Program-made: the position numbers and the translations under genes
Assembly (NCBI GenBank): GCA_030606165.1
Contig: JAUWGZ010000002.1
Coordinates: forward strand, 1 to 39,231
DNA length: 39,231 nucleotides
Reading direction: 5' to 3'
Source: Dehalococcoidia bacterium
GTDB lineage: Bacteria; Chloroflexota; Dehalococcoidia; GIF9; AB-539-J10
Notes under the pieces: model-generated
Told to the model about the DNA's origin: nothing
The model's database searches: none
Seen by the model: the letters and a program-made list of their open reading frames with translations, nothing else
In this document: in pieces, positions 4,253 to 21,704 of the stretch
Layout of the letters: each line of letters opens with the position of its first letter
Numbering within the stretch: the first letter of the stretch is position 1

Positions 4253-4277
4253 GAGCGCCTGGAAGCTTTTATTTTAT

Positions 4278-5279: not shown

Positions 5280-5295
5280 TATTTCCTCCTTAACT

Positions 5296-6096: not shown

Positions 6097-6130
6097 TACC
6101 TAACCTCCTTAAAGATTTTTGCAGCCTCAA

Positions 6131-6159
6131 AGGATACGGGAAAATCCGCCTTCTGTCAA
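6131..6159 (-). promoter_or_regulatory. Putative etfBA promoter (-35 TTGACA, 17 nt, -10 TATCCT on minus strand)
   Basis: The plus-strand sequence is tgtcaa at 6154-6159 and aggata at 6131-6136. A 7-bp inverted repeat TCGAATC/GATTCGA (6164-6182) abuts the -35 element. Confidence 0.3.
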
Positions 6160-6338
6160 TAATTCGAATCACGAAGATTCGATATGAACGGTCTAGTTAA
6201 GTGATAATAGCTACTTCAGCCACGGAATTAATGCTAAAATAGACAAAAATTGTTATTCGTGGGCATATTTTTTACATCCGCCATTGGGAGGCCTCTAAGC
6301 CGTCCAGCCGAATCAATTGCTCTTGTTTGGGGCAAGCT

Positions 6339-6836
6339 ATGGAAGTTAAATTCATTGCAGCTAACAACGTTGGCAAACTGGCTCGATGGTTAAGGCTGAT
6401 TGGCTACGATACTCGGCTGTTTAGGCAAAAAAACGATGGTCAAATGATTAAAACAGCTCTTAGTGAGGACAGGGTGATCTTGACTAAAGATACTCAATTT
6501 ATGAAAAGACGCCTGGTCACAAATGGCAAACTCAAAACTATACTCATTAAACAGGATGACCCTAAACTCCAGGTACAGGAAGTAGTGAAAACGTTGAATT
6601 TAAATTATCATTTCAAACCTTTCTCGCTTTGCCTAGAATGTAATCAAGCATTAATAGCTCGGGATAAAGGCGAGGTGCAAAACCTGGTCCCCGCTCACGT
6701 TTTTGAAATTCAAACTCAATATACGGAATGCCCCACCTGCCATCGCATCTACTGGCAGGGTACACATTGGCAGGCGATGGTCAAGAAGTTACAAGACTTG
6801 CAAGGAGGGGGTAGCGAAAAGCATACTTCTAGCTAA
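6339..6836 (+). CDS. Mut7-C RNase domain protein (PIN-like N-terminal domain plus C-terminal zinc ribbon)
   Basis: MEVKFIAANNVGKLARWLRLIGYDT matches the N-terminal hallmark of the Mut7-C/DUF82 family. The C-terminus has CLECN...CPTCHRIYWQGTHW. I prefer the ATG at 6339 over the TTG at 6327 given in the ORF track. Confidence 0.75.
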   Translation: MEVKFIAANNVGKLARWLRLIGYDTRLFRQKNDGQMIKTALSEDRVILTKDTQFMKRRLVTNGKLKTILIKQDDPKLQVQEVVKTLNLNYHFKPFSLCLECNQALIARDKGEVQNLVPAHVFEIQTQYTECPTCHRIYWQGTHWQAMVKKLQDLQGGGSEKHTSS

Positions 6837-6938
6837 TGCCCGGCTTTTTAATCTGGAGCTTCGAGACTAGCACGGATTAGCTAGTAGTGCTATACTCAGC
6901 CCATAATGCCAGGAGAATAAAGGTAAAGCTAAGCATCT

Positions 6939-7709
6939 ATGTTATTAGCAATTGATATTGGAAACACCAACATTAAGCTGGGCATATTTGATGGCGATAG
7001 GCTAAAAGCTACCTGGAATTTAGCTACCGGCATTCATCGCACTTCAGACGAGTATGGTGGAGTGGTGCTCAACCTTATGGAGCGGAAAAAAGTCTTGCCC
7101 TCAAAGGTTACTGGAGTAGCATTATGCGGTGTCGTGCCACCATTGCTGTATACATTCGAGGAACTGTGTAGGAAATATTTAAATACTAAACCCTTAGTGG
7201 TCGAAACTGGAGTCAAGACAGGCATGCGCATTCGCCTGGATAATCCTCGTGAGGTTGGCCCTGACCGCGTGGTCAACGCCGTGGCTGCCCAGAATCTCTA
7301 CGGAAAACCGCTAATAATTATTGACCTTGGCACTGCTACCACTTTCGACGTTGTTTCAAAGGAGGGTGATTATCTTGGCGGGGCTATTGCCCCGGGCATT
7401 GTCATAGCTACTGAAGCTTTATTCACTCGTACTGCTGCGCTCCCTCGAATAGAACTAGTCCATCCCAAGCAAGTCATCGGCAGAAATACTATCTCTGCTA
7501 TGCAATCAGGTATAATATTTGGTTACATTGAGCTTATTGAAGGCATGATTCGTCGAATACAACAGGAATTGGGAAGCAAAGCAAAGGTGGTAGCTACCGG
7601 CGGCCAGGCTTACCCTTTTGCCGAAGAGATAGCAGCCATAGACGTAATAAATCCCGATTTAACCTTAACTGGATTGCGCCTCATTTATGAAATGAACAAG
7701 GAACAGTGA
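6939..7709 (+). CDS. coaX: Type III pantothenate kinase
   Basis: 256 aa with MLLAIDIGNTN, GPDR and DLGTATTFD motifs of CoaX. Confidence 0.9.
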   Translation: MLLAIDIGNTNIKLGIFDGDRLKATWNLATGIHRTSDEYGGVVLNLMERKKVLPSKVTGVALCGVVPPLLYTFEELCRKYLNTKPLVVETGVKTGMRIRLDNPREVGPDRVVNAVAAQNLYGKPLIIIDLGTATTFDVVSKEGDYLGGAIAPGIVIATEALFTRTAALPRIELVHPKQVIGRNTISAMQSGIIFGYIELIEGMIRRIQQELGSKAKVVATGGQAYPFAEEIAAIDVINPDLTLTGLRLIYEMNKEQ

Positions 7710-8987: not shown

Positions 8988-11660
8988 ATGTCCGAAATAC
9001 CTAAAGCCTATGAGTCAGGCAAGATAGAAAAGAAGTGGTATGATTTCTGGCTCAAGCAAGGCTATTTTTCTCCTAAAATAGACCCCAACAAGAAGCCTTT
9101 TGTCATTATTATGCCCCCTCCTAATGTTACCGGTGAACTCCACCTAGGGCATGCTCTGACCTCGGCACTGGAGGATATCATGGTCAGGTGGCACAGGATG
9201 AAAGGTGACCCCACCTTGTGGCTACCGGGGACCGACCATGCTGGCATTGCTACGCAAGTAGTGGTGGAGCAGCAACTGGCTAAACAAGGGCAAACTAAGG
9301 AGGAGATAGGCAGAGAGAATTTCACTAAGTTAACCTGGGAATGGGCTAACAAGAGCCGAGGAAATATCAGGCATCAACACCAGCTACTGGGAGCTTCATG
9401 TGATTGGACAAGGGAGAGGTTCACCCTGGATGAAGGCCCGAGCAAAGCAGTCCAGACTGCCTTCATGCGTTTGTACAATAAGGGGTTAATCTATCGTGGA
9501 GAGCGAATGATAAACTGGTGTCCCCGCTGCCAAACTGCCCTCTCCGACCTCGAAGTAGAACATAAAGATATTGTCGGACATCTTTATTATATTCGCTATC
9601 CTCTAACCGAAAATGAGGGCTTCGTCACCGTAGCTACTACCCGGCCGGAAACTTTTCTCGGCGACACGGCTGTGGCGGTAAATCCCGAAGATGAGCGCTA
9701 CAAGAATCTCATAGGCAAAAGTGTCACCCTCCCTATTATAGATAAGGAAATCCCCATAATCGCTGATGATGCTGTTGATACTTCTTTCGGCACCGGAGCA
9801 TTGAAGATAACTCCAGCCCATGACCCCACGGACTTCGAAGTAGCCCAGAGACATAATTTGCCACTGGTAAACATTATGGAGCCCAATGCTACTATGAACG
9901 AGAACGCCGGGCCCTATCAAGGATTGGAAAGGTTTGCCTGTCGAGATAAGGTATTAGCTGACCTGAAGGACAAAAAACTTTTGGAGAAAATCGAGCCCTA
10001 CTCTCATTCGGTAGGACATTGTGGTCGTTGCCAGACGATGATTGAACCCAAAGTCAGCCTGCAATGGTTTGTCCAAACACAGCCCTTAGCTAAAGCTGCC
10101 ATCGAGGCTGTTAAAGATGGCAGGGTCACTATAATTCCGGAACGCTTCGCCAAGATATATTTTGACTGGATGGAAAATATCAGGGATTGGTGTATCAGCC
10201 GACAACTATGGTGGGGACATCGCATCCCAGTATGGTACTGTCAGGACTGTGGCAAGTTAGTGGTATCGGTAGATGAACCGACAGCATGTATCCATTGTGG
10301 TTCGAAACAAATCATCCAAGACCCTGATGTCCTTGACACCTGGTTTAGCTCAGCACTATGGCCACATTCCACGCTGGGCTGGCCAGAGGACACTGAGGAC
10401 CTCCGCTATTTCTATCCCGGCTCGGTAATGGAAACTGGCTATGACATCCTTTTCTTCTGGGTCGCCAGGATGATTATGATGGGACTGGAGGATACTGGTG
10501 AGATACCTTTCCACACTGTTTACCTCCATGGCTTAATTCGCGATGAAAGCGGAGAAAAAATGAGCAAATTGCGAGGGAATGTTATAAACCCTGCCGAAGC
10601 TATAAGCAAGTATGGTGTTGATGCTCTCCGCTTTGCTCTAACTACTGGGACTTCACCGGGGAATGATATAAATCTGGGCAAAAGTAAATTGGAATCCAGC
10701 CGCAATTTTGTCAATAAATTGTGGAATGCCACTAGATTTATCCTTCGGAGCCTGGATGCTGAAAGGCTAGAAGTTCAGGCAATAGAGCTCCAACCGCAGA
10801 GAATAGAAGACCAATGGATTGATGGCCAGCTCAACAAGCTTGTAAAAAATGTTGCCGGGCTGATGGAAGAGTTCCAATTTGGTGAAGCAGAGCAGCAGAT
10901 TTACGATTTTGTCTGGTCAAAGTTCTGTGACTGGTATATTGAAATTGCTAAGATACGACTTCGCAGCCAATTAACCCCTTCACCTTCGCCCTTCCTGGCC
11001 AATACATTGGAAAAATCACTGCGTCTTTTGCATCCTTTCATGCCTTTCGTTACCGAGGAATTGTGGCAAAGTTTAAAGCAACATCTACCTGACAAAGACC
11101 AGATGCCGGCTTCCATAATGATAGCTCCCTATCCCCTCGCTGACGATAAGGCCTTTGCTCCAGAAGCAGAGCGGGTGATGGATTCCGTAATAGAGATTAT
11201 CCGCTCTATCCGTAACGTTCGGGCTCAATATAAGGTAAAGCCAAACAAATGGATTGAAGCCCAAGTTTATGCTGGTGAGCTTCTTTCGGGTCTTATCACA
11301 CAAGCGAATATAATAGAAACACTGGCTAAAGTTCAGCCCTTAACGATACTCGGTCGCCAGAAAAGAGAACCCACTAAAGATAAAGCCCTGGTTTTGGTAT
11401 TGAAAGAGGCTGAGGTAGTTTTGCCTTTGGCAGGCATGGTGGACCGGCTTGCTGAAGAACAACGACTGGTAAAGGAAAGCGAGGAAATCAAAGGAAGAAT
11501 GGCCCAACTTGAAGCCAGGCTAAGAGATAATGCCTTTTTAAGCAAAGCGCCATCTCAGGTTATTGAAAGAGAGAAACAAAAGCTTGCTATGCTCGAAGAT
11601 AAATTGAAAAGGTTACACCAAGAATTATCTCAACTGAGCTCACCGACAACCGATATGTAA
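8988..11660 (+). CDS. valS: Valine--tRNA ligase
   Basis: 890 aa. Class I HIGH motif (PNVTGELHLGHA), KMSKS motif (KMSKLRGN), CP1 editing domain and a C-terminal coiled coil. Confidence 0.95.
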   Translation: MSEIPKAYESGKIEKKWYDFWLKQGYFSPKIDPNKKPFVIIMPPPNVTGELHLGHALTSALEDIMVRWHRMKGDPTLWLPGTDHAGIATQVVVEQQLAKQGQTKEEIGRENFTKLTWEWANKSRGNIRHQHQLLGASCDWTRERFTLDEGPSKAVQTAFMRLYNKGLIYRGERMINWCPRCQTALSDLEVEHKDIVGHLYYIRYPLTENEGFVTVATTRPETFLGDTAVAVNPEDERYKNLIGKSVTLPIIDKEIPIIADDAVDTSFGTGALKITPAHDPTDFEVAQRHNLPLVNIMEPNATMNENAGPYQGLERFACRDKVLADLKDKKLLEKIEPYSHSVGHCGRCQTMIEPKVSLQWFVQTQPLAKAAIEAVKDGRVTIIPERFAKIYFDWMENIRDWCISRQLWWGHRIPVWYCQDCGKLVVSVDEPTACIHCGSKQIIQDPDVLDTWFSSALWPHSTLGWPEDTEDLRYFYPGSVMETGYDILFFWVARMIMMGLEDTGEIPFHTVYLHGLIRDESGEKMSKLRGNVINPAEAISKYGVDALRFALTTGTSPGNDINLGKSKLESSRNFVNKLWNATRFILRSLDAERLEVQAIELQPQRIEDQWIDGQLNKLVKNVAGLMEEFQFGEAEQQIYDFVWSKFCDWYIEIAKIRLRSQLTPSPSPFLANTLEKSLRLLHPFMPFVTEELWQSLKQHLPDKDQMPASIMIAPYPLADDKAFAPEAERVMDSVIEIIRSIRNVRAQYKVKPNKWIEAQVYAGELLSGLITQANIIETLAKVQPLTILGRQKREPTKDKALVLVLKEAEVVLPLAGMVDRLAEEQRLVKESEEIKGRMAQLEARLRDNAFLSKAPSQVIEREKQKLAMLEDKLKRLHQELSQLSSPTTDM

Positions 11661-11750
11661 ATACGAAATCCTGAACAATATAAAGCAACAACAACCAGAA
11701 TACTTTGAATTCATAGCATAGAAAATTTGAGTTTGTTTAAAGCTTAGAAA

Positions 11751-12446
11751 CTAGAATTCAGGATTTAACTCATGTGAAGAGTGGAGTGGCTTAGTTTTGA
11801 GTTCCAATATCTCATGCAACTTTGTCAGGGCTTTTTTGGTATCGCTAGCCACGCAGGATTTATCACGCCTTTTTATACGATATTTAAATAGCCAATAGGT
11901 AAATTCATTAAGCCCGCTCAGGCTTATAGACCTGAGCTGAGGATAATGTCTCTCTTTTCTAAACTGCTTCAAAAGGGCAAATTGAGTGGCACCATAAATG
12001 CTTTGGTAGGCCTCGTCGACTACTCCGTTATCGTTGTTCAAACCTAAAACTCTCTTTTTCTTTCGTATCTCTTCAGTTACAGCCAAAAAGAGAAATTTTT
12101 CCACAAGAATGCCATAGAAATAGTTGAGGTGAGCCTGGTATTTAGAAGCACCGATTATATTCTTAAACTCGTCTTTAGATAATTCTATCGGTGGTATACC
12201 GAAGAAGAGAAGATTGGCCCGCTCCTTTTCTGGAATAAGTCCATCGAGCTCTTCACATAACCTCTCTGCCAGAACTATCCAATCGAAGGCTTCGTTGTCA
12301 ACAAGATACTGATAATGTCGCCCGTCATAGTCCTCTTCAGGACTACGCCAGAGACGAATGGCTTCAAGAACAGCCACATACCAATTCTTGCCTTCAGCAA
12401 TAGCACTTTTCAGCCCTTGGATTGCCTGAGTATCTCGAGTAGACAC
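11751..12446 (-). CDS. Hypothetical protein, no recognisable family (231 aa from GTG 12446; 236 aa if GTG 12461)
   Basis: Long ORF with protein-like composition, convergent with valS. GGAGG at 12459-12455 sits 8 nt before the GTG at 12446. A TTGAGT-17-TATAAT promoter lies upstream. Confidence 0.55.
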   Translation of the reverse strand: MSTRDTQAIQGLKSAIAEGKNWYVAVLEAIRLWRSPEEDYDGRHYQYLVDNEAFDWIVLAERLCEELDGLIPEKERANLLFFGIPPIELSKDEFKNIIGASKYQAHLNYFYGILVEKFLFLAVTEEIRKKKRVLGLNNDNGVVDEAYQSIYGATQFALLKQFRKERHYPQLRSISLSGLNEFTYWLFKYRIKRRDKSCVASDTKKALTKLHEILELKTKPLHSSHELNPEF

Positions 12447-12480
12447 TCCAGCCACCTCCACAATTATTCCGGAAAACTAT

Positions 12481-12509
12481 ATTATATCTCCATCAGCCCA
12501 AAGACTCAA
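12481..12509 (-). promoter_or_regulatory. Putative promoter of the 231/236-aa orphan gene (-35 TTGAGT, 17 nt, -10 TATAAT on minus strand)
   Basis: The plus-strand sequence is attata at 12481-12486 and actcaa at 12504-12509. Confidence 0.4.
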
Positions 12510-12584
12510 GACGTAGTATGAGTTGGTTCTGTTCGGTTAGCGTTGGTAGAAAATTGGGTAGTGTATCATTTTGAAAGTGGGGTA

Positions 12585-12613
12585 TTGACAATACATTAAG
12601 GATGTGCTATATA
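12585..12613 (+). promoter_or_regulatory. Putative promoter of the NYN gene (-35 TTGACA, 17 nt, -10 TATATA)
   Basis: TTGACA at 12585-12590 and TATATA at 12608-12613. It is divergent from the orphan-gene promoter. Confidence 0.45.
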
Positions 12614-12627
12614 CAATATATAGCAAC

Positions 12628-12653
12628 CTCACAGAGAATTGAGTATCTGTGAG
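12628..12653 (+). promoter_or_regulatory. Perfect 8-bp inverted repeat (CTCACAGA, 10-nt spacer, TCTGTGAG) in the NYN leader; operator or RNA hairpin
   Basis: Read directly. It starts about 15 nt downstream of the predicted -10 element. Confidence 0.35.
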
Positions 12654-12657
12654 CAAC

Positions 12658-12688
12658 AAAAGGAGGCGGATAGCCTCTTTTTGTTATT
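12658..12688 (+). terminator. Terminator-like hairpin inside the NYN 5' leader (possible attenuator)
   Basis: AAAAGGAGGC, loop ggata, GCCTCTTTTT, followed by GTTATT. The GC core is 5 bp plus a G-U pair, flanked by A and T tracts. It lies about 40 nt upstream of the NYN ATG. Confidence 0.3.
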
Positions 12689-12724
12689 ATGGGGTTATTT
12701 TTAATAATTATATAATATAAAGCA

Positions 12725-13345
12725 ATGAACGAAGAGTATGATACAGAACGAGCTATGGTATTCGTTGATGGCAATAACTTATACCATAGCTTGAGGGAAA
12801 ATGACTGGAGAACGTGGACTGACATCGGTCTGTTAGCCGAGAGGTTGGCCGGCGATAGAACTCTAGTACACATTTATTACTATAATGCTCCTCCTCCAGG
12901 TAGTAAACCTCATACAGAAAAAGGTAATGCTTATCTTTCTCGTGTGAAAAGAACACCTAATCTTACATTCCGTTCTTCTTGGTTGCAGCCCACTAAAAAA
13001 GCCGATGAATACGGGGTGTATCAGTCATACAGAGAAAAGGGTTGCGATACGGCCATTGCTACTGATATGGTGTCTTTAGCGGCTAACGATGAGTATGACA
13101 TAGCCATAATTGTGGCGAGTGACGGAGATTATGCACCTGCTGCAAAGAAACTATGCGACTATGGCAAATCCGTTGAAGTAGTATATTTCCCTGGCCGTAA
13201 ACCTTTCATTATGGAAGAATACGCATTGATGAGAGCATTTCGGCCTGGTTACGCTATTCCGTATGACTACTCTGAACGCCCACCACGGAGGCCTACCGGC
13301 AAATCACGTAAGGAATCATACAGGAGAAATCGACGTAGAAGATAA
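12725..13345 (+). CDS. NYN (LabA-like) domain ribonuclease with arginine-rich C-terminal tail
   Basis: MVFVDGNNLYHSL, GCDTAIATDM and IIVASDGDYAPAAKKLCDYGKSVEVV match the NYN/LabA acidic-residue pattern. The tail reads RPPRRPTGKSRKESYRRNRRRR. The start is uncertain: ATG 12725 has no obvious SD, and the ATG about 30 nt downstream is an alternative. Confidence 0.8.
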   Translation: MNEEYDTERAMVFVDGNNLYHSLRENDWRTWTDIGLLAERLAGDRTLVHIYYYNAPPPGSKPHTEKGNAYLSRVKRTPNLTFRSSWLQPTKKADEYGVYQSYREKGCDTAIATDMVSLAANDEYDIAIIVASDGDYAPAAKKLCDYGKSVEVVYFPGRKPFIMEEYALMRAFRPGYAIPYDYSERPPRRPTGKSRKESYRRNRRRR

Positions 13346-13503
13346 AGGCCATTAATCGGCCAATTCTACTAAATCCTTTATAGTACAAATATGGTTAGTT
13401 AATCCAGTTGCCATTGCTGGCGTTCTCAGACATGGGTTAGCTAACGATTCAATTGAGCATTCTTTAGTGGGCTTTGTGCTAGTCTTCTTTGTGATAAAGA
13501 AAT

Positions 13504-13530
13504 CCCTACTTGAAACAGTAGGGTTCTTCT
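13504..13530 (+). terminator. Hairpin CCCTACT-tgaaac-AGTAGGG followed by TTCTTCT; likely terminator after the NYN gene
   Basis: A 7-bp perfect stem read directly. It also has a T-rich tail on the opposite strand. Confidence 0.35.
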
Positions 13531-13577
13531 GATATTATGAGTTGCAAAGAATATAGCGTATTTAAACTCTGCCTGCA

Positions 13578-13606
13578 ATTCTAAGTTACTGACATTAACT
13601 TAGAAT
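13578..13606. promoter_or_regulatory. Perfect 11-bp palindrome ATTCTAAGTTA, 7-nt spacer, TAACTTAGAAT upstream of the 262-aa/PIN bicistron; candidate autoregulatory operator
   Basis: Read directly. The right arm overlaps a -35-like TTAGAA that sits 16-17 nt before TATTAT (about 13624-13629). AAAGGAGGG and the ATG at 13660 follow. Confidence 0.45.
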
Positions 13607-13659
13607 GCCCTTCGTCAGCAGTTATTATATCACGTCTGCAAAAGGAGGGCAAGTTCAAG

Positions 13660-14448
13660 ATGAACAGCAGTACTATTTCAAAAAGCTTCATAGAGGTTAG
13701 CTTTTCAGGCGAGGGTATCAAACCAGACTCCGTAAAGGCTAGTGACATTGCAGATATTCTCAACGCTGTGGAGGATATGGTTGAGTCTCAAGTCTTTCGA
13801 GACCACCCTGAAATTGACAAGGAACAAGTCATTCTTGGTTTTGTTAATATAAAGTCAGATAGTGTTGACCTCCAATTTGTTTCTCCTATTCAGGAAATAG
13901 TGTTTCCTATATTCCGAAGCATTGGGCAAGCCGTAAAAACCAATGATTATAAGGACTTGCCTACAAGCTCTATAGATGCACTTGACACAATAGTGTCATT
14001 CTCACGTAAAAAACAGTGTATTGCCGAATTTGTGACCAACAATGGACATCGTGAAGTTCTTGCAACGATTACACCAAAAACCACACTGGAAAGACGTGCG
14101 AGATTATCTGGTGAAACTACAATATACGGTCAGGTCGTGAGGGTAGGGGGTAGAGACCCAAGGGCTATGGTAGAGTTGCTTAATGGTCAAACAGTATTTT
14201 GCGATACAAATGAAGCTATAGCTAAGAAACTTGGTAGTAGGCTCTATACTATTGTTGGTTTATTTGGAATGGCACGATGGGACGATGAATCATTAAAGTT
14301 AGAACAATTCACGATAAAAGACATTACACCCTATGAAGAATTGCCATTGGAAGACGTTATGAGCCAATTAGCTAAGGCTGTAGGTGTGTATTATAGGGAT
14401 GTAACTGACGTAGAAAAGTATATTTCCGACATCAGGGGTAAGGTTTAA
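13660..14448 (+). CDS. Hypothetical 262-aa protein, no family recognised; upstream partner of the PIN nuclease
   Basis: AGGAGG-type RBS and protein-like composition. Its stop lies 7 nt before the PIN ATG, giving an operonic pair. Confidence 0.7.
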   Translation: MNSSTISKSFIEVSFSGEGIKPDSVKASDIADILNAVEDMVESQVFRDHPEIDKEQVILGFVNIKSDSVDLQFVSPIQEIVFPIFRSIGQAVKTNDYKDLPTSSIDALDTIVSFSRKKQCIAEFVTNNGHREVLATITPKTTLERRARLSGETTIYGQVVRVGGRDPRAMVELLNGQTVFCDTNEAIAKKLGSRLYTIVGLFGMARWDDESLKLEQFTIKDITPYEELPLEDVMSQLAKAVGVYYRDVTDVEKYISDIRGKV

Positions 14449-14455
14449 GAACCGA

Positions 14456-14953
14456 ATGAATTTAGTTTGCTTCGATAATCATGTTCTAGTATGGGGTATT
14501 AAGGAACAAGCAACTCCTGGGCAGGAAGATATGATACCACGCACAAAGGCATTCATTAGTAAATTACAAAACGATAAAATACATGTCCTGATACCCTCTG
14601 TTGTCGTTGCTGAATTTCTAATGCCTATTCCCCCAAATATGCATGCCACTGTAATAAATTTATTTGATAGGGGTTTTGTTGTAGCTCCATTTGATACAGC
14701 GGCTGCTAGTCAATTTGCCAAGATTTGGCTATCTAAGAAGGGACAGGAACTTGCAAATAACCTAGTTAAGAATGGCGCAACCAGAGCTGAATTAAAGATA
14801 GATAGCTTAATTGTGGCTACCGCTATTTCACAAAAGGCTGAATGTATCTATAGCCACGATGCCGGAGTGAGAGCATTTGCACAAGATTATATTGAGGTAA
14901 AAGAAATCCCCTTTATCCCCCTACAGATAAATATGCCAACAGAAAAGAGTTAG
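14456..14953 (+). CDS. PIN-domain nuclease (VapC-like toxin candidate)
   Basis: 165 aa. The four acidic PIN positions are recognisable: D7 (CFDNHVL), E53 (VVVAEFL), D116 (KIDSLIVATAI) and D135 (YSHD). Confidence 0.75.
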   Translation: MNLVCFDNHVLVWGIKEQATPGQEDMIPRTKAFISKLQNDKIHVLIPSVVVAEFLMPIPPNMHATVINLFDRGFVVAPFDTAAASQFAKIWLSKKGQELANNLVKNGATRAELKIDSLIVATAISQKAECIYSHDAGVRAFAQDYIEVKEIPFIPLQINMPTEKS

Positions 14954-14991
14954 CATTTATTCCACCTTTTTGAGCAGCATTCCTTGCTATC

Positions 14992-15126
14992 TTATTTCTT
15001 TTCAAAACGAGTCTTGCCACCTTTTAAACCACCTAACCTACCAAGTGCAACAGCATGAGGATTCTTCCCATTGATTAACGCTGGCTCTGTTTGCTTGGGT
15101 TCAAGCTCAATAGGTCTTGACAGGTT
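14992..15126 (-). pseudogene. Start-less 44-codon remnant ending ...NGKNPHAVALGRLGGLKGGKTRFEKK*
   Basis: The open frame is bounded by a stop at 15127-15129 and has no ATG, GTG or TTG. The AVALGRLGG-KGGK motif recalls small basic ORFs common in mobile or TA-rich regions; this is from memory, not searched. Confidence 0.3.
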
Positions 15127-15193
15127 TTATAGTGTTTTCTTTATTTTTCATTATCAGCTAAAATCGAACAGAACCTATGAATTCTAACGTAAA

Positions 15194-15223
15194 TTGACAG
15201 TGCCCATTTTTCTAGGCTATTAT
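15194..15223 (+). promoter_or_regulatory. Promoter of the GreA-like gene (-35 TTGACA, 18 nt, -10 TATTAT)
   Basis: TTGACA at 15194-15199 and TATTAT at 15218-15223. Only 7 nt separate the -10 element from the TTG start at 15231. Confidence 0.4.
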
Positions 15224-15230
15224 CTACTTC

Positions 15231-16049
15231 TTGGTGGAAAACACCTCTGCGCACAATCCGACACTTACTGAAGCAGCTGACGCTTTCCTATCAAATTTAC
15301 CGCCGGAAGAAAGGGTAAAAACACAGGCAGAGATATCTAAATTCGCCAGATGGCTTGGCTTATCCAGGCAAGTAAAGGACGTTAGCCCTGTAGATGTGGC
15401 TAGCTATGGTGAACACATTATCCCATCGGCAGTCAAACCCCTCAGGTCTTTTCTTACGTACATCCGGAAAAAGAGATTCAGCAGCATAAATTTAGCTCCT
15501 CACCTCAGGGCGAAAAAAACTTCTTCAAAAACAGTCGCCGTTCGGCAAAGTGGTCAGGTCCAGGCTACCCTAACTGCACAAGGCTACGCAAAATTAGAGA
15601 AGGAATTAGCCAACCTGAAAAATCAACGCTCCCAAGTTATTGATGAGATACAAAAGGCAGCCGCTGACAAGGACTTCCGAGAAAATGCCCCCCTGGCAGC
15701 AGCTAGAGAGCGTAAGGCATATTCGGAAGGAAGAATTAAGGAGATAGAGTCAATCTTAAATCGGGCGCAGATAGTGGGGGAAGACCAGGACACATCCAAG
15801 GCAAAATTCGGAGACACAGTAGTGCTTCGTGATTTATCCTCAGGTAAAGAATCCAGCTATACTCTAGTCGATCCCCGAGAGGCAAATCCAGCCAAGGGTA
15901 AACTTTCTGTTGCTTCCCCCCTGGGCAAAGCAATCCTGGATAAAGAAAAGGGGCAAACAGTTGAAGTTATCGCTCCTGCTGGTACCTTCTGCTGCCGCAT
16001 TGAAGACATTTTGGCCCTCTCAACGGAAAGAAAAGCCAGCCCGCAGTGA
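15231..16049 (+). CDS. GreA/GreB-family transcript cleavage factor with ~110-aa N-terminal extension
   Basis: Residues ~113-260 show a GreA coiled coil (LTAQGYAKLEKELANLK...DFRENAPLAAARERK) and a C-terminal globular domain (KFGDTVVLRD...VASPLGKAILDKEKGQTVEV). The N-terminal ~110 aa are extra. TTG or GTG start. Confidence 0.85.
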   Translation: MVENTSAHNPTLTEAADAFLSNLPPEERVKTQAEISKFARWLGLSRQVKDVSPVDVASYGEHIIPSAVKPLRSFLTYIRKKRFSSINLAPHLRAKKTSSKTVAVRQSGQVQATLTAQGYAKLEKELANLKNQRSQVIDEIQKAAADKDFRENAPLAAARERKAYSEGRIKEIESILNRAQIVGEDQDTSKAKFGDTVVLRDLSSGKESSYTLVDPREANPAKGKLSVASPLGKAILDKEKGQTVEVIAPAGTFCCRIEDILALSTERKASPQ

Positions 16050-16185
16050 CCTTAGGAACTGACGGGTACAAATGAGGAAGACGGGACTTAAGCTACACTA
16101 ATCCTCGTCAGCTTTGCTTGCGAAAAGATTTTAAAGTTTGTTGATCCACCTGCCATATGGCATAATGAATTAAGCCACAAGAAGC

Positions 16186-16277
16186 GGAGGGATCGCATAG
16201 TGGTCTAGTGCGGGCGCCTGCTAAGCGCTTACTCCGAGTTATCGGGGTCGAGGGTTCGAATCCCTCTCCCTCCGCCA
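16186..16277 (+). tRNA. tRNA-Ser (anticodon GCU), long variable arm, encoded CCA
   Basis: Cloverleaf folded by hand. Acceptor stem GGAGGGA/TCCCTCC, D-stem GCA/TGC, anticodon stem GGCGC/GCGCT with loop CTGCTAA, long variable arm, T-arm GAGGG-TTCGAAT-CCCTC, discriminator G, then CCA. Confidence 0.9.
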
Positions 16278-16530
16278 CCATTGAGATTCGCCCTTCTCAA
16301 GCAAAGTTGAGAAACGCTGGGATATTTCCTTTGAAGGTGTGGAGAGGGTCGCTAAGCTTCTCGAGTAGGTGACATTATATAGCGCAAAGCTCAAATTCTA
16401 AAGAGCACAAAAAATTCCAGGGCTGGCATATTGACACACACAGTAAAGGCAAATAAACTGTCTGCAACAAGGTCATAGAAATCCGGAGGAAATGTCAGCC
16501 CTTTGACATACTACCACTAGTTGTACCACG

Positions 16531-17121
16531 ATGATATCAGCAATACTCCTAGCTGCCGGTGAATCAAATCGCATGGGTCAGCCAAAGCAACTGATGCCTT
16601 TTGGCCAGAGTACCATTTTGGAAACAACCATTGACAATCTTTTGAATTCAGCAGTAAGCGAGACTATCGTGGTGCTGGGATACAGAGATGAGGGGATACG
16701 AAAAACTATAGCCGGCAAACCGGTTAAGGTAGCAATAAATCCAGATTACCAGCAAGGGATGAGCGCCTCCATAATTGCTGGATTAAAATAAATTGATAAA
16801 AGAGCCAGGGCAGTGCTTATCGCCCTGGGTGACCAGCCTTTTGTTGACAGTCAGACCATCAATAGCTTAGTAGAAGCATTCATAGCTAATAAGAGAGGAA
16901 TTATTATCCCGGTCTATCAGGGCAGAAGGGGGAATCCCGTTATCTTCGCTATCGGATATAAGGGCGAACTCTTGAATCTAAAGGGAGACGTTGGTGGCAG
17001 GGAAATAGTCAAACGTCACCCTGATGACGTGCTTGAAGTGGCGGTCAACTGTGAAGGCGTCTTGCTTGACATTGATACCGCGGAAAATTATACTTCGATT
17101 ATATTTAATCCTGATAAATAA
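16531..17121 (+). pseudogene. MocA/MobA-like molybdenum cofactor nucleotidyltransferase interrupted by an in-frame TAA (16789-16791)
   Basis: ORFs 16531-16791 and 16813-17121 are in the same frame. Read through, the sequence is ...SIIAGLK*IDKRARAVLIALGDQPFV... The N-terminal motif is LLAAGESNRMGQPK and the motif after the stop is ALGDQP. The stop falls in a poorly conserved loop. Confidence 0.7.
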
Positions 17122-17141: not shown

Positions 17142-17846
17142 ATGGAGAAAGATAACAAAAACAGCTATGGTGAGTGGCAGAGTTGGACTCGAGTCATCAT
17201 TGGGATTCTGGTCTTTGGCTCTATCTGGGGATTGCTTGAGGCTACGCTGGGTGGCTTTCTCAATATGATTATATTCCCCAACAAGGGCGCTATAATGGGC
17301 GGCATCGGCATGGCTATTATGGGTACAGCTCTGGCTCTCTATCGGAAGCCAGCTATGCTGCCGGGCATAGGTATTGTTGCTGCCTCGTTTAAGTGGCTCA
17401 ATTCCTGGCTCCTGTTCGTACCAGCCAGTGCTGTATTTATTATCAATCCGGCTATGGCCATCTTTCTGGAATCTCTGGCATTTAGCTTGGTGGTAACTTT
17501 TTTGATGTATCGGATAGATAAAAGTGTCTATGTTGGCGCTTGGGCTGCGTTTCTGGCTGGCCTTATAAGCGTCACTGCCTATGGCTATTTCAGTGTATAT
17601 ATAATGCATGCCCCCCTCTTTGAACGTATGGGGGTCAGCAGTGTTCCCGCATTTATCGCCAGCCATGGCGTGATACAGGCGGTTTTCTTTGGTATGCTGG
17701 CGCCTCTGGGTTATCTGGTAGGTAGGAAGCTGGCGGCTACTGCTCCAGTGTTTTTACGCAGACCTCTTTATTACTACGCTACATCAGCGGCCATCATCTG
17801 TTTTTGCCTGGTAATCAGTGCGGTAGCCGTACTGGCTGGGCTTTAA
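17142..17846 (+). CDS. Polytopic membrane protein of unknown function (about 6-7 TM segments)
   Basis: 234 aa and strongly hydrophobic. AAAGGA RBS. It is tightly packed between the MocA-like gene and the NTPase. Preferred over the overlapping antisense ORF 17088-17666. Confidence 0.6.
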   Translation: MEKDNKNSYGEWQSWTRVIIGILVFGSIWGLLEATLGGFLNMIIFPNKGAIMGGIGMAIMGTALALYRKPAMLPGIGIVAASFKWLNSWLLFVPASAVFIINPAMAIFLESLAFSLVVTFLMYRIDKSVYVGAWAAFLAGLISVTAYGYFSVYIMHAPLFERMGVSSVPAFIASHGVIQAVFFGMLAPLGYLVGRKLAATAPVFLRRPLYYYATSAAIICFCLVISAVAVLAGL

Positions 17847-17853
17847 CCAGAAT

Positions 17854-18381
17854 ATGGTCATTATTATCACTGGCGCCATAGGGATTGGCAAGACTACGGT
17901 CTGCGAAAAGGTGGTAAAGATAGTCCGCAGTTCAGGCTATTCGTGTGGTGGCATTCTAATACATAAAGCAGCGCATGAAAGCCTTATCGCTTTAGATATT
18001 CAAACTGGAGAAAGGGCGGTTCTGGCCAGTGCTGGTAATACATTTGACGGCCCGCGAACTCCCAGATATTCATTCAATTCTGAGGCTATCAAATTCGGCA
18101 TCAGGGCAATAAACAAAGCTATTGATTCGGACGTTCTTATTATAGATGAACTCGGGCATCTGGAACTGGATGGTGAGGGGTTTGCCAAGAGCCTAGAGTT
18201 CGTCAAGACAGGAAGGGTCAAAAACTCTATTCTGGTTATCCGAAAAGAGCTTCTTCCCGCCTTTTTAGCTCAGTTAGGCGATAGCCCTTCAATCTTTGAA
18301 ACGACTATTAGCACTCGCGACCGGTTACCACGTAAGATATGCTCATCCCTGATTGGCAATCTACCTGATTTTTCATCCTAG
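17854..18381 (+). CDS. P-loop NTPase (THEP1/DUF2478-like)
   Basis: 175 aa. Walker A is ITGAIGIGKTT and Walker B is LIIDELGHLE. The size and pattern fit small THEP1-like NTPases. Confidence 0.72.
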   Translation: MVIIITGAIGIGKTTVCEKVVKIVRSSGYSCGGILIHKAAHESLIALDIQTGERAVLASAGNTFDGPRTPRYSFNSEAIKFGIRAINKAIDSDVLIIDELGHLELDGEGFAKSLEFVKTGRVKNSILVIRKELLPAFLAQLGDSPSIFETTISTRDRLPRKICSSLIGNLPDFSS

Positions 18382-20564: not shown

Positions 20565-21323
20565 ATGTTTAGATTGGATGACAAAGTAGCTGTCGTTATT
20601 GGTGGGGCAGGGGGGCTTGGTGAAGCCTGTGCACTCGCTCTAGCACAGCAAGGAGCCAAGGTCGTAATAGCAAGCCGTACTTTGGAGAAATTGCAAGATA
20701 CAGCTAGAAAAATTCAATCCGTGGCCAACGCCGAAATTACGGCAATACAGGTAGATGTAATTAGTGAAAGTAGCACTGCTCATTTGGTAGAACAGATACT
20801 CCAGAAATTTCAAACTGTTGACATACTCGTAAATGCTCACGGCTTAAATGCCAAAATGCCCGCCATTGATATTGATTTCAACAAATGGGATGTATTATTT
20901 GCAACAAATGTAAAAGGTGTCATGGTTGCCTGCAAAAGTTTCGGCAAGGTAATGATTGAGAAAAAGAAAGGTAAGATTATTAATCTTTCTTCGGTGCGCG
21001 GTATTCGTGGTACTGACGGTGGTAACACCACCTATGGAGCTACGAAAGGTGCGGTGGATATGGTCACTCGTATGCTAGCGGCTGAATGGGCACCCTATAA
21101 TATTAATGTCAATGCTATCGGCGCCTCTGTAGTAATGACAGAAGCTTTAAAAAAAGCGTTAACACCAGAGCGCCTACAACTATTGCTTTCTAAAACGCTA
21201 TTTAAGAAATTTGCCACACCTCAGGATATTGCTGCAGCTTGTGTTTATCTTGCCTCCACTGAGGCTGATTATGTTACCGGACAAATCATGTACGTTGATG
21301 GCGGCCTTACCGCAATCGGTTAA
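20565..21323 (+). CDS. Short-chain dehydrogenase/reductase; candidate phloroglucinol reductase
   Basis: 252 aa. Cofactor motif VIGGAGGLGEA, catalytic S...YGATK and a strong AAAGGAGGAGG RBS. Confidence 0.88.
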   Translation: MFRLDDKVAVVIGGAGGLGEACALALAQQGAKVVIASRTLEKLQDTARKIQSVANAEITAIQVDVISESSTAHLVEQILQKFQTVDILVNAHGLNAKMPAIDIDFNKWDVLFATNVKGVMVACKSFGKVMIEKKKGKIINLSSVRGIRGTDGGNTTYGATKGAVDMVTRMLAAEWAPYNINVNAIGASVVMTEALKKALTPERLQLLLSKTLFKKFATPQDIAAACVYLASTEADYVTGQIMYVDGGLTAIG

Positions 21324-21367
21324 ATCGCCTGCAATAATTAGCAACAGTAAAAGATGGGGAGGTAAAA

Positions 21368-21700
21368 ATGAAAGTCGTTAGAAAAAACGAAGGTGTCGTA
21401 TACGAAGCCCCTCTACATTTCAATGTATGGAGTATCCGAAAGTTATCGGACAAGGATACTCAGAGACTCTCGGTTAGCTTATCTCACTTCCTACCTAACG
21501 GGCATGTTGATATGTCAGGCTCACCAAGTGAAAAGATGTATTATATTTTGGGTGGCAGTATGGTAGTGAAGAATAAGGCGGGAGAAGAGGCTACTCTTCA
21601 GGCTGGTGATATTGTATATTTCGCCAGTGGTGAAGAACGAGAGGGTCATATCGTTGGTAATGAAGTTTGTACTATCTTAGTGTGCATAGTAAAAAGTTAA
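21368..21700 (+). CDS. Cupin-domain protein
   Basis: 110 aa of single-barrel size, with a pattern ending ...GDIVYFASGEEREGHIVGNE. GGGGAGG RBS. Confidence 0.65.
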   Translation: MKVVRKNEGVVYEAPLHFNVWSIRKLSDKDTQRLSVSLSHFLPNGHVDMSGSPSEKMYYILGGSMVVKNKAGEEATLQAGDIVYFASGEEREGHIVGNEVCTILVCIVKS

Positions 21701-21704
21701 GGAT

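What the first reader, a model, noticed from the sequence alone, without database searches (positions are those of the whole stretch)
11751..15230. AT-richer accessory islet between valS and greA/tRNA-Ser made of nucleases and unknowns
Core genes flank a ~3.5-kb block: valS on the left, and GreA-like plus tRNA-Ser on the right. The block contains:
- an orphan protein
- an NYN RNase
- a 262-aa unknown
- a PIN nuclease
- a start-less ORF remnant

It also carries its own promoters, palindromes and hairpins. Spot counts on single 60-nt lines gave about 38-42% GC at 14461-14640, against about 50% at 26401-26460. valS lines vary widely, so this needs proper computation.

Two PIN-like-fold RNases bracket an uncharacterised protein next to a tRNA gene. 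That pattern is typical of toxin-antitoxin or anti-phage islands, but the combination matches no named system I know.
Basis: partly seen in the sequence, partly recalled or inferred. Interest (0 to 1): 0.7.

Follow-up and report, generated by a model that had tools for sequence, protein, structure and literature searches.

The report
Decayed transposon carrying nuclease cargo genes
The AT-rich block is mostly a 2.65-kb transposon relic that has lost its transposase, inserted between two conserved Dehalococcoidia genes and carrying a lone NYN RNase gene plus a widespread, unstudied two-gene "OB-fold protein + PIN nuclease" module that resembles a toxin-antitoxin pair.

Summary
The described genes and the low GC are real (40.2% against 46.8%), but the unit is drawn wrongly.

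- **orf236 is not part of it.** The 236-aa "orphan" (11751-12461) has 3,352 homologue clusters. In the four closest relatives it lies directly beside greA.
- **The accessory part is 12525-15175 (2,651 nt).** All four relatives lack it at the same junction. It has 14-bp terminal inverted repeats and an 8-bp target duplication.
- **It is a transposon relic.** Inside are one IS1-family end, a 32-codon remnant of an IS1-family transposase, and a pseudogene of a small basic ORF. Intact sibling elements elsewhere have perfect repeats and 8-bp duplications. They carry restriction-modification genes where the window has NYN.
- **The cargo is two independent modules.**
  - The NYN RNase matches PADLOC candidate HEC-09, which gave no defence against any phage tested.
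  - The orf262-PIN pair was adjacent in 15 of 15 informative loci across phyla. The orf262 family has about 1,700 clusters and no Pfam model. The PIN catalytic tetrad is intact.
- **Function is inferred.** A toxin-antitoxin-like addiction or defence role is my inference, not a demonstrated result.
- **The tRNA-Ser is incidental.**

Overall this is an ordinary kind of insertion with a moderately interesting uncharacterised cargo family.

The parts
11751..12461 (-). FLANK, not part of the insert: orf236, a conserved Dehalococcoidia hypothetical protein. Its promoter-like site (TTGAGT-17-TATAAT, 12509-12481) lies left of the insertion point.
   Evidence: 3,352 homologue clusters, top hits 85-94% identical. 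Syntenic valS-orf236(-)-greA arrangement in L006, L009, L010 and L021. Promoter-like site.
12517..12524 (.). Left copy of the 8-bp target-site duplication, TATGAGTT.
   Evidence: Relatives have a single copy at the empty site (alignment A1). blastn overlap of 8 nt at L006 9946-9953.
12525..12538 (+). Outer terminal inverted repeat, left: GGTTCTGTTCGGTT. This is the left boundary of the inserted DNA.
   Evidence: Inverted repeat I1. Only two copies exist in the window. The boundary coincides with the break in homology to L006, L009, L010 and L021.
12557..12577 (+). Inner IS1-family terminal inverted repeat (left end), GGTAGTGTATCATTTTGAAAG. There is no matching right copy in the window.
   Evidence: Identical 20-mer forms both ends of the complete element in L089, with perfect 8-bp duplication TACTCGTT. 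Also present in L086, L095 and L100. The M. loti and A. multivorum IS1 elements have related ends and perfect 8-bp duplications. Single copy in the window.
12585..12686 (+). NYN upstream region: promoter-like TTGACA (12585-12590), 17 nt, TATATA (12608-12613); 8-bp hairpin at 12628-12653; terminator-like hairpin plus T-run at 12662-12686.
   Evidence: Read directly from the sequence. Hairpin 12663-12677 reported. The region from 12620 onward is conserved at 88% in L095. Function not tested.
12725..13345 (+). NYN-domain RNase-like protein, 206 aa with an Arg-rich C-terminal tail. Independent single-gene cargo in the left cargo slot.
   Evidence: PF01936 2.1e-20. PADLOC HEC-09 9.1e-22. D15, N18, D108, D114, D133 and D135 invariant in 25 homologues. 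96 homologue clusters.
13355..13450 (-). Remnant (last ~32 codons) of an IS1-family transposase gene. The rest of the gene is deleted.
   Evidence: tblastn with the L086 and L089 transposases, E 1e-7 and 5e-7. Nucleotide alignment A2. The transposases are IS1 family: NCBIfam transpos_IS1 4.5e-16 and RefSeq 'IS1 family transposase' at 53-57% identity.
13504..13538 (+). Promoter-like site of the orf262-PIN operon (TTGAAA 13510-13515, 17 nt, TG-TATTAT 13533-13538), with a 7-bp palindrome CCCTACT/AGTAGGG (13504-13523) over the -35 box.
   Evidence: Conserved in 7 loci, with a both-sides change in L089 and L100.
13578..13606 (+). Second conserved inverted repeat, between the promoter and the ribosome-binding site. 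Either an operator or a 5'-UTR hairpin.
   Evidence: Inverted repeat I11. Ten-pair helix with compensatory changes in 7 loci.
13660..14448 (+). orf262, the partner of the PIN protein. N-terminal alpha/beta region, OB-fold barrel (about residues 149-224) and C-terminal helices with invariant R259.
   Evidence: AlphaFold2 pLDDT 83.4. Foldseek PDB hits are only to OB-folds. No Pfam or PDB sequence match. Family of 1,704 clusters at 50% identity. Invariant residues.
14456..14953 (+). PIN-domain nuclease, 165 aa, with an intact acidic tetrad D7/E53/D116/D135. Putative toxin or effector.
   Evidence: Always immediately downstream of an orf262 homologue (15 of 15 informative loci).
14998..15111 (-). 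Pseudogene of the small basic ORF (84 aa in L089; annotated 'histone H1' in M. loti). It has lost its 5' end and has an internal stop.
   Evidence: 75% nucleotide identity to L089 6568-6681. Six-frame translation shows ...NGKNPHAVALGRLGGLKGGKTRFEKK*. Intact sequences.
15162..15175 (-). Outer terminal inverted repeat, right: GGTTCTGTTCGATT on the minus strand. This is the right boundary of the inserted DNA.
   Evidence: The same end, with 25 nt conserved, lies in L090 next to a different flank.
15176..15183 (.). Right copy of the target-site duplication, TATGAATT. The near-identical population contig L091 has TACGAGTT, so the ancestral copy was probably a perfect TATGAGTT.
15194..16049 (+). FLANK, not part of the insert: greA promoter-like site (TTGACA 15194-15199, 18 nt, TATTAT 15218-15223) and the GreA-like gene, both left intact by the insertion.
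   Evidence: Conserved in 80 Dehalococcoidia loci.

Best explanation
**Shown**
- Window 12525-15175 is a 2,651-bp insertion by transposition into the 110-bp divergent promoter region between two conserved genes, orf236 and greA. It is not a four-gene islet next to a tRNA.
- It is a decayed, non-autonomous derivative of an IS1-family passenger-carrying transposon.
- It keeps the IS1-type left end.
- It keeps the last ~32 codons of the transposase gene.
- It keeps a pseudogene of the family's small basic ORF.
- It has lost the transposase and the IS1 right end.
- It is now bounded by a second pair of 14-bp inverted repeats (GGTTCTGTTCGRTT) flanked by an 8-bp target duplication.
- It carries two unrelated cargo modules.
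  - One is a single NYN-domain protein with a complete catalytic core. It sits in the slot where sibling elements carry restriction-modification systems.
  - The other is a bicistronic module, orf262 (alpha/beta region, OB-fold, C-terminal helices) followed by a PIN nuclease with an intact catalytic tetrad.

**Inferred**
- The outer ends were mobilised in trans by another transposase, possibly of the IS6 type.
- orf262-PIN works like a type II toxin-antitoxin or abortive-infection module. The PIN protein would be an RNase held inactive by orf262, probably through its C-terminal helices and invariant Arg259.
- The conserved palindromes at the promoter would give autoregulation.
- The module would stabilise the mobile element in its host, protect against phage, or both.
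- NYN would be an independent RNase-type defence or addiction candidate.
For: **Insertion**
- L006 (~95% nt identity), L009, L010 and L021 have coaBC-valS-orf236(-)-greA with orf236 about 110 nt from greA. None of the 80 greA loci contains NYN, orf262 or PIN next to greA.
- The junctions are precise. There is a single TATGAGTT at the empty sites and a duplicated copy in the window. L091 shows the ancestral duplication was probably perfect.
- The 13/14 inverted repeat lies exactly at both junctions.
- The same right end sits beside a different flank in L090.

**IS1 ancestry**
- The inner end GGTAGTGTATCATTTTGAAAG is identical to both ends of the complete 4.7-kb element in L089, which has a perfect 8-bp duplication.
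- The transposase remnant is detected.
- Complete relatives in the M. loti and A. multivorum plasmids have related ends, perfect 8-bp duplications and cargo.
- The transposase lies divergently upstream of orf262-PIN in L086/L099, L089, L100 and L101.

**Cargo**
- The left slot holds an EcoRV restriction-modification system in L089, an Mrr_N nuclease plus N6_N4 methylase in L100, and NYN in the window and L095.

**The pair**
- orf262 and PIN are adjacent in 15 of 15 informative loci, down to 30-38% identity, including Sinorhizobium.
- Start and stop codons overlap by 4 nt in the called genes of L001-L003, L004, L086-L088, L089 and Sinorhizobium.
- The PIN tetrad is invariant.
- The promoter palindromes are conserved.
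- GC3 of the cargo genes is low.

**Precedent**
- Toxin-antitoxin pairs embedded beside transposase genes are described for Tn3-family transposons (PMC7157771, listed).
Against: - No toxicity, neutralisation or defence has been tested for any of these genes.
- orf262 is three times the size of a typical VapB. It has no recognisable RHH, AbrB or HTH DNA-binding domain, and its OB-fold suggests nucleic-acid binding rather than simple antidote function.
- HEC-09, the only named relative of the NYN protein, gave no protection against any phage tested.
- The window copy has no transposase and only one IS1-type end.
- The origin of the outer ends is unresolved.
- L100 has the IS1-type ends but no target duplication.
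- The GC3 deviation of NYN (0.372) is matched by a few ordinary genes at 20565-22664.
Confidence: 0.75

Rival explanations
1. orf262-PIN is not a toxin-antitoxin pair. It is a two-subunit effector in which orf262 acts as a nucleic-acid sensor or substrate adaptor through its OB-fold, recruiting or activating the PIN nuclease. This would be a stand-alone anti-phage system.
For: - OB-fold matches to the ExoVII large subunit, the LysRS anticodon-binding domain, IF1 and RPA.
- The full-length model resembles a prophage DUF6575 protein (Foldseek E 2e-11, TM 0.39). DUF6575 occurs in an experimentally selected E. coli defence system.
- Both proteins match PHROG families.
- Neighbours are often restriction-modification genes or other nucleases.
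Against: - The gene order (partner first, PIN second, overlapping), the promoter palindromes and the invariant C-terminal Arg fit the classical antitoxin-toxin layout equally well.
- TM-scores are low.
- There is no PADLOC hit.
- Nothing was found in the phage records or in the viral contigs.
Confidence: 0.25
2. One reading: orf236, NYN, orf262 and PIN together form one accessory multi-nuclease system or island associated with the tRNA-Ser gene.
For: The genes are contiguous, the block has lower GC, and a tRNA gene lies within 1 kb.
Against: - orf236 is conserved and syntenic without the other genes.
- NYN and the pair occur apart in every independent locus examined.
- The block has inverted repeats and a target duplication 1 kb away from the tRNA, with greA in between.
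- No integrase or tRNA-derived repeat is present.
Confidence: 0.04
3. orf262-PIN is an accessory part of the transposition machinery of this IS1 subgroup, for example a flap or strand-processing nuclease with a single-strand-binding partner, rather than cargo.
For: - The pair lies divergently next to the transposase, sharing a regulatory region, in 4 independent contigs.
- PIN-like folds include FEN-type nucleases (established knowledge).
- The OB-fold suggests single-stranded nucleic-acid binding.
Against: - IS1 relatives in M. loti and A. multivorum have the same ends and duplications but lack the pair.
- The pair occurs without any IS1 transposase in L001, L004, L005 and L097, and in L102-L106, L109 and L110.
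Confidence: 0.06
4. The block is ancestral and was deleted independently or once in the relatives, so it is not an insertion.
For: Only four relatives with the valS-orf236-greA arrangement were available.
Against: - All four relatives, with GreA 71-92% identical to the window's, share the same clean junction with a single copy of the duplicated octamer.
- The block has terminal inverted repeats and low GC3.
- Its parts occur in unrelated contexts elsewhere.
Confidence: 0.02

Closest known systems
IS1-family insertion sequences that carry passenger genes (single-ORF IS1 subgroup, e.g. the 'IS1 family transposase' elements on Mesorhizobium loti p_1 and Acidiphilium multivorum plasmid unnamed1)
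   Same: - The left end is identical to that of the complete siblings and closely related to those two plasmid elements (GGTAGTG..TCA.TTTGAAA).
- Sibling copies have 8-bp target duplications.
- The window keeps a transposase remnant and a remnant of the conserved small basic ORF.
- Cargo genes lie between the ends.
   Different: - The window copy has no transposase and no IS1-type right end.
- It was mobilised as a unit bounded by different 14-bp repeats.
VapBC-type type II toxin-antitoxin modules (PIN toxin, upstream antitoxin)
   Same: - PF01850-type PIN with all four acidic residues.
- Partner gene immediately upstream and translationally coupled.
- Palindromes at the promoter.
- Patchy distribution across phyla on mobile DNA.
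   Different: - The partner is 262 aa with an OB-fold and no RHH, AbrB, Phd or HTH domain.
- It has no Pfam family and no solved relative.
- Toxicity is untested.
Toxin-antitoxin gene pairs embedded in Tn3-family transposons (PMC7157771)
   Same: A toxin-antitoxin-type pair placed right beside the transposase gene of a transposon, sharing its regulatory region.
   Different: - The transposon family is IS1, with no resolvase.
- The comparison rests on that paper's title and abstract only.
PADLOC candidate HEC-09 (NYN-domain protein embedded in Hma systems; bioRxiv 10.1101/2024.01.29.577857)
   Same: The NYN protein matches the HEC-09 model (9e-22) and keeps the catalytic aspartates.
   Different: - It is not embedded in an Hma system.
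- HEC-09 itself showed no defence against the phages tested.
Non-autonomous transposable cassettes (MITE or mobile-insertion-cassette type) and IS6-family ends
   Same: - It is bounded by short inverted repeats with an 8-bp duplication, and has no transposase but does have cargo.
- The outer repeat has the GG tip and cTGTt motif, 14-bp length and 8-bp duplication described for the IS6 family (PMC7986276).
   Different: - It lacks the IS6 'caaa' motif.
- No IS6-type transposase or second copy was found.
- At 2.65 kb it is much larger than a MITE.

Membership tests
IS1-family insertion sequence / passenger-carrying IS | Encodes an IS1-family DDE transposase | tested here: not met
   Only the last ~32 codons remain (13355-13450, minus strand). 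The intact gene is present in siblings L086, L089, L100 and L101. The window copy is therefore a derivative, not a functional member.
IS1-family insertion sequence / passenger-carrying IS | Family-type terminal inverted repeats at both ends | tested here: not met
   The left end is present and identical to those of L089 (12557-12577). No right copy was found with up to 3 mismatches.
IS1-family insertion sequence / passenger-carrying IS | 8-9 bp target-site duplication | tested here: met
   The 8-bp TATGAGTT/TATGAATT duplication flanks the outer ends, and the L091 variant implies an originally perfect repeat. Perfect 8-bp duplications are seen in L089, M. loti and A. multivorum.
VapBC-type type II toxin-antitoxin | PIN-domain toxin with conserved acidic catalytic residues | tested here: met
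   D7, E53, D116 and D135 are invariant in 12 orthologues. All 12 match PF01850.
VapBC-type type II toxin-antitoxin | Small upstream antitoxin with an RHH, AbrB, Phd or HTH DNA-binding domain | tested here: not met
   The partner is 262 aa with no Pfam, NCBIfam or PADLOC domain. The model shows an OB-fold.
VapBC-type type II toxin-antitoxin | Conserved bicistronic arrangement, partner gene first | tested here: met
   15 of 15 informative loci. 4-nt overlaps in the called genes of L001-L003, L004, L086-L088, L089 and Sinorhizobium. 7-nt gap in the window.
VapBC-type type II toxin-antitoxin | Toxin arrests growth and the cognate antitoxin neutralises it | not testable with these tools
   Requires expression experiments.
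PADLOC HEC-09 | NYN protein matching the HEC-09 profile | tested here: met
   PDLC04163, 9.1e-22, residues 8-159.
PADLOC HEC-09 | Embedded in an Hma (helicase-methylase-ATPase) system; anti-phage activity | tested here: not met
   No Hma genes lie in the insert or its flanks. The source paper found no defence for HEC-09.
IS6-family ends (outer repeats) | GG tip, cTGTt and caaa motifs in 14-20 bp repeats; 8-bp duplication; IS6 transposase | tested here: inconclusive
   The GG tip, cTGTt motif, 14-bp length and 8-bp duplication are present. The caaa motif is absent.
tRNA-targeted integrative genomic island | Integrase gene and insertion into or abutting the tRNA 3' end, with a repeat of that end | tested here: not met
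   The insert ends 1,010 nt upstream of tRNA-Ser with greA in between. There is no integrase, and the flanking repeat is an 8-bp target duplication.
Dodola (DolA = DUF6414) | Significant match of orf262 to DUF6414 and a ClpB-like partner | tested here: not met
   Only 2 of 37 family members give weak DUF6414 hits (best E 0.017). The partner is a PIN protein, and there is no PADLOC hit.

The most novel reading that the evidence does not exclude
The orf262-PIN pair represents a large cross-phylum family (about 1,700 clusters at 50% identity) of toxin-antitoxin or abortive-infection modules that nobody has described. In this family an OB-fold protein both restrains a PIN RNase and senses a single-stranded nucleic-acid trigger. 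In Dehalococcoidia, IS1-family transposons would serve as small shuttles that move such modules together with restriction-modification systems or NYN RNases.
Probability: 0.3. Interest if true: 0.6.

Novelty: new variant of a known kind. Interest (0 to 1): 0.4.

Why it matters
- **It corrects the picture.** The 'islet' is one clean transposition event into a promoter region, not a tRNA-linked island. One of its four genes is a conserved core gene.
- **It shows defence-type cargo on IS-sized elements.** IS1-family elements in uncultured Dehalococcoidia carry restriction-modification systems, an NYN RNase and a PIN module. This is a cheap route for spreading defence or addiction genes in a group with few known mobile elements.
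- **It flags an uncharacterised protein family.** The roughly 260-aa OB-fold family has about 1,700 clusters, no Pfam model and no solved structure. It always sits with a PIN nuclease, so it is a concrete and easily cloned candidate for a new toxin-antitoxin or defence family.

Tried and rejected
- **DUF6414/Dodola link for orf262:** only 2 of 37 members hit weakly. Rejected.
- **Sequence search of PDB:** neither the single orf262 or PIN sequences nor their family profiles gave anything significant.
- **PIN structure:** The single-sequence model had pLDDT 42 and was unusable, so no fold search was run on it.
- **Phage collections:** tblastn of orf262 against phage records found nothing. A scan of IMG/VR viral contigs found no relative.
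- **Plasmids:** the only hit was a Sinorhizobium replicon, where the PIN reads as split or frameshifted.
- **Rfam on 11500-16500:** only the tRNA. A snoRNA-like hit at E 0.13 was ignored.
- **Distant-relative locus search:** the search with alignment A6 failed because no stretch was conserved enough. It was redone with A3.
- **Other copies of the outer repeat:** none in the window or in 112 loci, apart from the same-population contigs and L090.
- **Codon-usage distance:** not discriminating for genes this short. GC3 was used instead.
- **Integrated island beyond tRNA-Ser:** considered as an explanation for the break in synteny at 16286. Only metabolic genes and no integrase were found.

Full report
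**1. Checking the observation**

The flanks are as described. valS lies at 8988-11660. A GreA-like gene with an N-terminal extension of about 110 aa lies at 15231-16049. tRNA-Ser(GCT) lies at 16186-16277.

The block contains four ORFs:
- a 236-aa ORF on the minus strand (11751-12461);
- an NYN protein (12725-13345; PF01936, 2e-20);
- a 262-aa protein with no family match (13660-14448);
- a PIN protein (14456-14953; PF01850, 2.5e-4, just under the Pfam cut-off).

The composition claim holds.
- Positions 11751-15230 are 40.2% GC against 46.75% elsewhere.
- That is close to the lowest 3.48-kb stretch of the window; only 0.8% of windows are as low or lower.
- Non-overlapping windows of that size have mean 46.7%, sd 1.75 and minimum 42.2.
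- GC3 is 0.307 for PIN, 0.342 for orf262 and 0.372 for NYN. The other 29 genes have mean 0.466 and sd 0.058.
- orf236 is normal at 0.418. Genes at 20565-22664 are about as low as NYN.

**2. The block is not one unit**

I fetched 80 loci around GreA homologues from Dehalococcoidia genomes.
- Four relatives share the window's left-hand arrangement: L006 (about 95% nucleotide identity), L009, L010 and L021.
- All four read coaBC-valS-orf236(-)-greA, with orf236 about 110 nt from greA. None has NYN, orf262 or PIN.
- orf236 has 3,352 homologue clusters, the top hits 85-94% identical. It is a conserved lineage gene of unknown function, not an orphan and not accessory.
- Other relatives (L007, L011-L013, L018) have uvrA-HD-PAS kinase-HAD(-) upstream of greA instead, and again none of the cargo genes.

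**3. The insert and its ends**

Homology to L006 runs to window 12524 and resumes at 15176. Eight L006 bases (9946-9953) are aligned to both sides.

In the alignment, the empty sites carry one octamer (consensus TATGAGTT). The window has TATGAGTT at 12517-12524 and TATGAATT at 15176-15183. A near-identical contig from the same population, L091, has TACGAGTT on the right. The original duplication was therefore probably a perfect TATGAGTT.

Immediately inside the duplication lie inverted repeats: GGTTCTGTTCGGTT at 12525-12538 and GGTTCTGTTCGATT on the minus strand at 15162-15175. They match at 13 of 14 positions and are the only two copies in the window.

The same right end, with 25 nt conserved, ends a 91%-identical orf262-PIN cassette in an unrelated contig, L090, and is followed there by a different flank. 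The inserted DNA is therefore 12525-15175 (2,651 nt). It arrived by transposition between the promoter-like sites of orf236 and greA, both of which remain intact.

**4. What the insert derives from**

Homologues of orf262 led to contigs in which a 277-280-aa transposase lies divergently upstream of orf262-PIN: L086/L099, L089, L100 and L101. The evidence that it is an IS1-family enzyme is:
- Pfam DDE_Tnp_IS1 and HTH_Tnp_IS1;
- best NCBIfam match transpos_IS1 at 4.5e-16, below that model's cut-off;
- homologues at 53-57% identity annotated 'IS1 family transposase' in RefSeq plasmids.

L089 holds a complete element at 2409-7112.
- It has perfect 20-bp inverted repeats, GGTAGTGTATCATTTTGAAA.
- It has a perfect 8-bp duplication, TACTCGTT.
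- Its content is an EcoRV endonuclease, a Dam-type methylase, the transposase, orf262, PIN, and two small ORFs of 84 and 92 aa.

Two plasmid relatives show the same design with other cargo.
- Mesorhizobium loti p_1 has a 3.37-kb element with duplication CGCTGGTG.
- Acidiphilium multivorum has a 2.63-kb element with duplication AAGCCGAG.
- Both have ends of the form GGTAGTG.GTCAGTTTGAAA.
- Their cargo is an HTH-IrrE/M78 peptidase protein and a ClpP-like protease, respectively.

The window retains three relics of such an element:
- the identical left end at 12557-12577, 32 nt inside the outer boundary;
- the last ~32 codons of the transposase at 13355-13450 on the minus strand (tblastn 1e-7);
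- a truncated, stop-containing copy of the 84-aa small basic ORF at 14998-15111 on the minus strand.

The transposase body and the IS1-type right end are gone.

The outer repeats differ from the IS1-type ends. They show the GG tip, cTGTt motif, 14-bp length and 8-bp duplication that a review gives for the IS6 family, but they lack its 'caaa' motif. I found no cognate transposase, so their origin is open.

**5. The cargo is two independent modules**

*NYN*
- The protein matches PADLOC candidate HEC-09 (9e-22).
- It keeps the invariant residues D15, N18, D108, D114, D133 and D135.
- In the paper that defined HEC-09, the protein protected against none of the phages tested.
- An 89%-identical NYN gene in L095 also follows the IS1-type left end and keeps the same junction to the transposase remnant. 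There it is followed by an IS1182-family transposase and has no orf262-PIN.
- L096 shows NYN with the same transposase next to a GmrSD gene.
- Sibling elements carry restriction-modification systems in this slot: EcoRV in L089, and an Mrr_N nuclease plus N6_N4 methylase in L100. The position therefore suggests a defence-type role, but nothing more.

*orf262-PIN*
- Every locus with enough downstream sequence has a PIN gene directly after the orf262 homologue. That is 15 of 15 loci, down to 30-38% identity, including a Sinorhizobium replicon.
- In the called genes of L001-L003, L004, L086-L088, L089 and Sinorhizobium, the two genes overlap by 4 nt.
- The surroundings differ each time:
  - integrase and primase elements;
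  - a UvrD/PD-(D/E)XK protein plus a methylase;
  - restriction-modification genes;
  - ordinary metabolic genes.
- A profile search found 1,704 clusters at 50% identity (421 at E<=1e-30), nearly all 250-270 aa.
- None of 37 sampled members has a Pfam domain, and no solved structure matches by sequence.
- PHROGs holds unannotated families for both proteins.

*Structure of orf262*
- The AlphaFold2 model has mean pLDDT 83.4.
- It shows an N-terminal alpha/beta region, a five-stranded barrel at about residues 149-224, and C-terminal helices.
- PDB fold matches cover only the barrel and are all OB-folds: the ExoVII large subunit, the LysRS anticodon-binding domain, IF1 and RPA.
- Against viral models, the best full-length match is a DUF6575 protein (E 2e-11, TM 0.39). 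DUF6575 occurs in an experimentally selected E. coli defence system. I treat this as a lead only.

*The PIN partner*
- D7, E53, D116 and D135 are invariant.
- All 12 orthologues match PF01850.

*Upstream region*
- It has a promoter-like site: TTGAAA, 17 nt, then TG-TATTAT.
- A palindrome lies over the -35 box.
- A ten-pair inverted repeat lies further downstream.
- Both repeats are conserved in seven loci, with some compensatory changes.

**6. Most likely mechanism**

*Shown:* one transposition event delivered a transposase-less IS1 derivative carrying NYN and orf262-PIN.

*Inferred:*
- The pair behaves like a VapBC-type module.
  - PIN would be an RNase.
  - orf262 would be its upstream, co-translated inhibitor and probable autoregulator.
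  - The invariant Arg259 in the C-terminal helices is a candidate plug for the acidic active site, as in FitA-FitB (my own knowledge, not tested here).
- The OB-fold leaves room for a sensing or substrate-recruiting role, which is the main rival reading.
- A role in transposition is unlikely. IS1 relatives lack the pair, and the pair occurs without IS1.

**7. Comparison with known systems and verdict**

The closest known things are:
- IS1-family passenger-carrying insertion sequences;
- VapBC toxin-antitoxin modules;
- toxin-antitoxin pairs inside Tn3-family transposons (PMC7157771);
- the candidate HEC-09;
- non-autonomous cassettes bounded by inverted repeats.

The window copy fails membership as a functional IS1 because it has no transposase and only one family-type end. 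The pair fails the VapB criterion of a small DNA-binding antitoxin.

The insertion itself is an ordinary kind of event. The uncharacterised OB-fold/PIN family and the defence-type cargo on IS1 elements in Dehalococcoidia are moderately interesting. I rate it a new variant of a known kind, with interest 0.4.

Noticed in passing
window 16277-16290 and rightwards (16290-39231): Homology to the closest relative L006 stops at 16286, just past the tRNA-Ser 3' end. The genes to the right are a MobA-like NTP transferase, an NTPase, BKACE, a cyclase, an SDR, 3HCDH, an acyl-CoA ligase and a molybdopterin oxidoreductase. The three I tested (16531-16791, 17142-17846, 17854-18381) have no counterpart within 10 kb of greA in any relative. 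This is a synteny breakpoint at the tRNA without a visible integrase.
   Followed up: partly
window 16531-17121: The MobA-like NTP-transferase domain is split over two adjacent ORFs, 16531-16791 (profile positions 1-81) and 16813-17121 (profile positions 90-159). It could be a pseudogene, a recoded stop or a sequencing error.
   Followed up: no
window 15186-15233; L007, L011, L012, L013, L018: The upstream edge of the greA promoter is a recurrent synteny break. Many Dehalococcoidia have uvrA-HD-PAS kinase-HAD(-) there instead of valS-orf236. The annotated TTG start of greA lies only 7 nt after the -10 box, which suggests a leaderless mRNA or a different start codon.
   Followed up: partly
window 15231-15560; 80 loci: The GreA-like protein carries an N-terminal extension of about 110 aa with no Pfam domain. 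The extension is conserved across the whole Dehalococcoidia set.
   Followed up: no
window 12591-12724; L095 300-390: The NYN gene has a leader of about 110 nt with an 8-bp hairpin (12628-12653) and a terminator-like hairpin plus T-run (12662-12686) just before the start codon. Both are conserved in L095. This may be an attenuator.
   Followed up: no
L089 6502-6756 (-); L111 1075-1284; window 14998-15111 (-): A small basic ORF with the motif GGLKGGKAR..LTPEQR..IA..AA.ARW lies near the end opposite the transposase in IS1-subgroup elements from Chloroflexota and Alphaproteobacteria. It is annotated 'histone H1' in M. loti and gives a weak hit to phrog_2384. It may be a conserved accessory gene of these elements.
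   Followed up: partly
L095 1121-2368 and L096 1405-2652: NYN homologues (89% and 76% identical) are each followed by the same 415-aa IS1182-family transposase. A DndB gene (L095) or a GmrSD gene (L096) lies nearby. This shows a second, independent association of the NYN gene with a transposase and with defence genes.
   Followed up: partly
L097 (Sinorhizobium sp. K101 pK101a) 5767-7074: A distant orf262 homologue (250 aa) is followed, with a 4-nt overlap, by a PIN gene that reads as two overlapping frames (6516-6779 and 6700-7074). This is a frameshifted pseudogene or an assembly error. The region carries no annotation in the gene table held for the plasmids collection.
   Followed up: no
L100 483-5829: A 5.3-kb sibling element has IS1-type ends (1 and 3 mismatches) but no matching 8-bp duplication. 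This suggests recombination between copies or decay.
   Followed up: no
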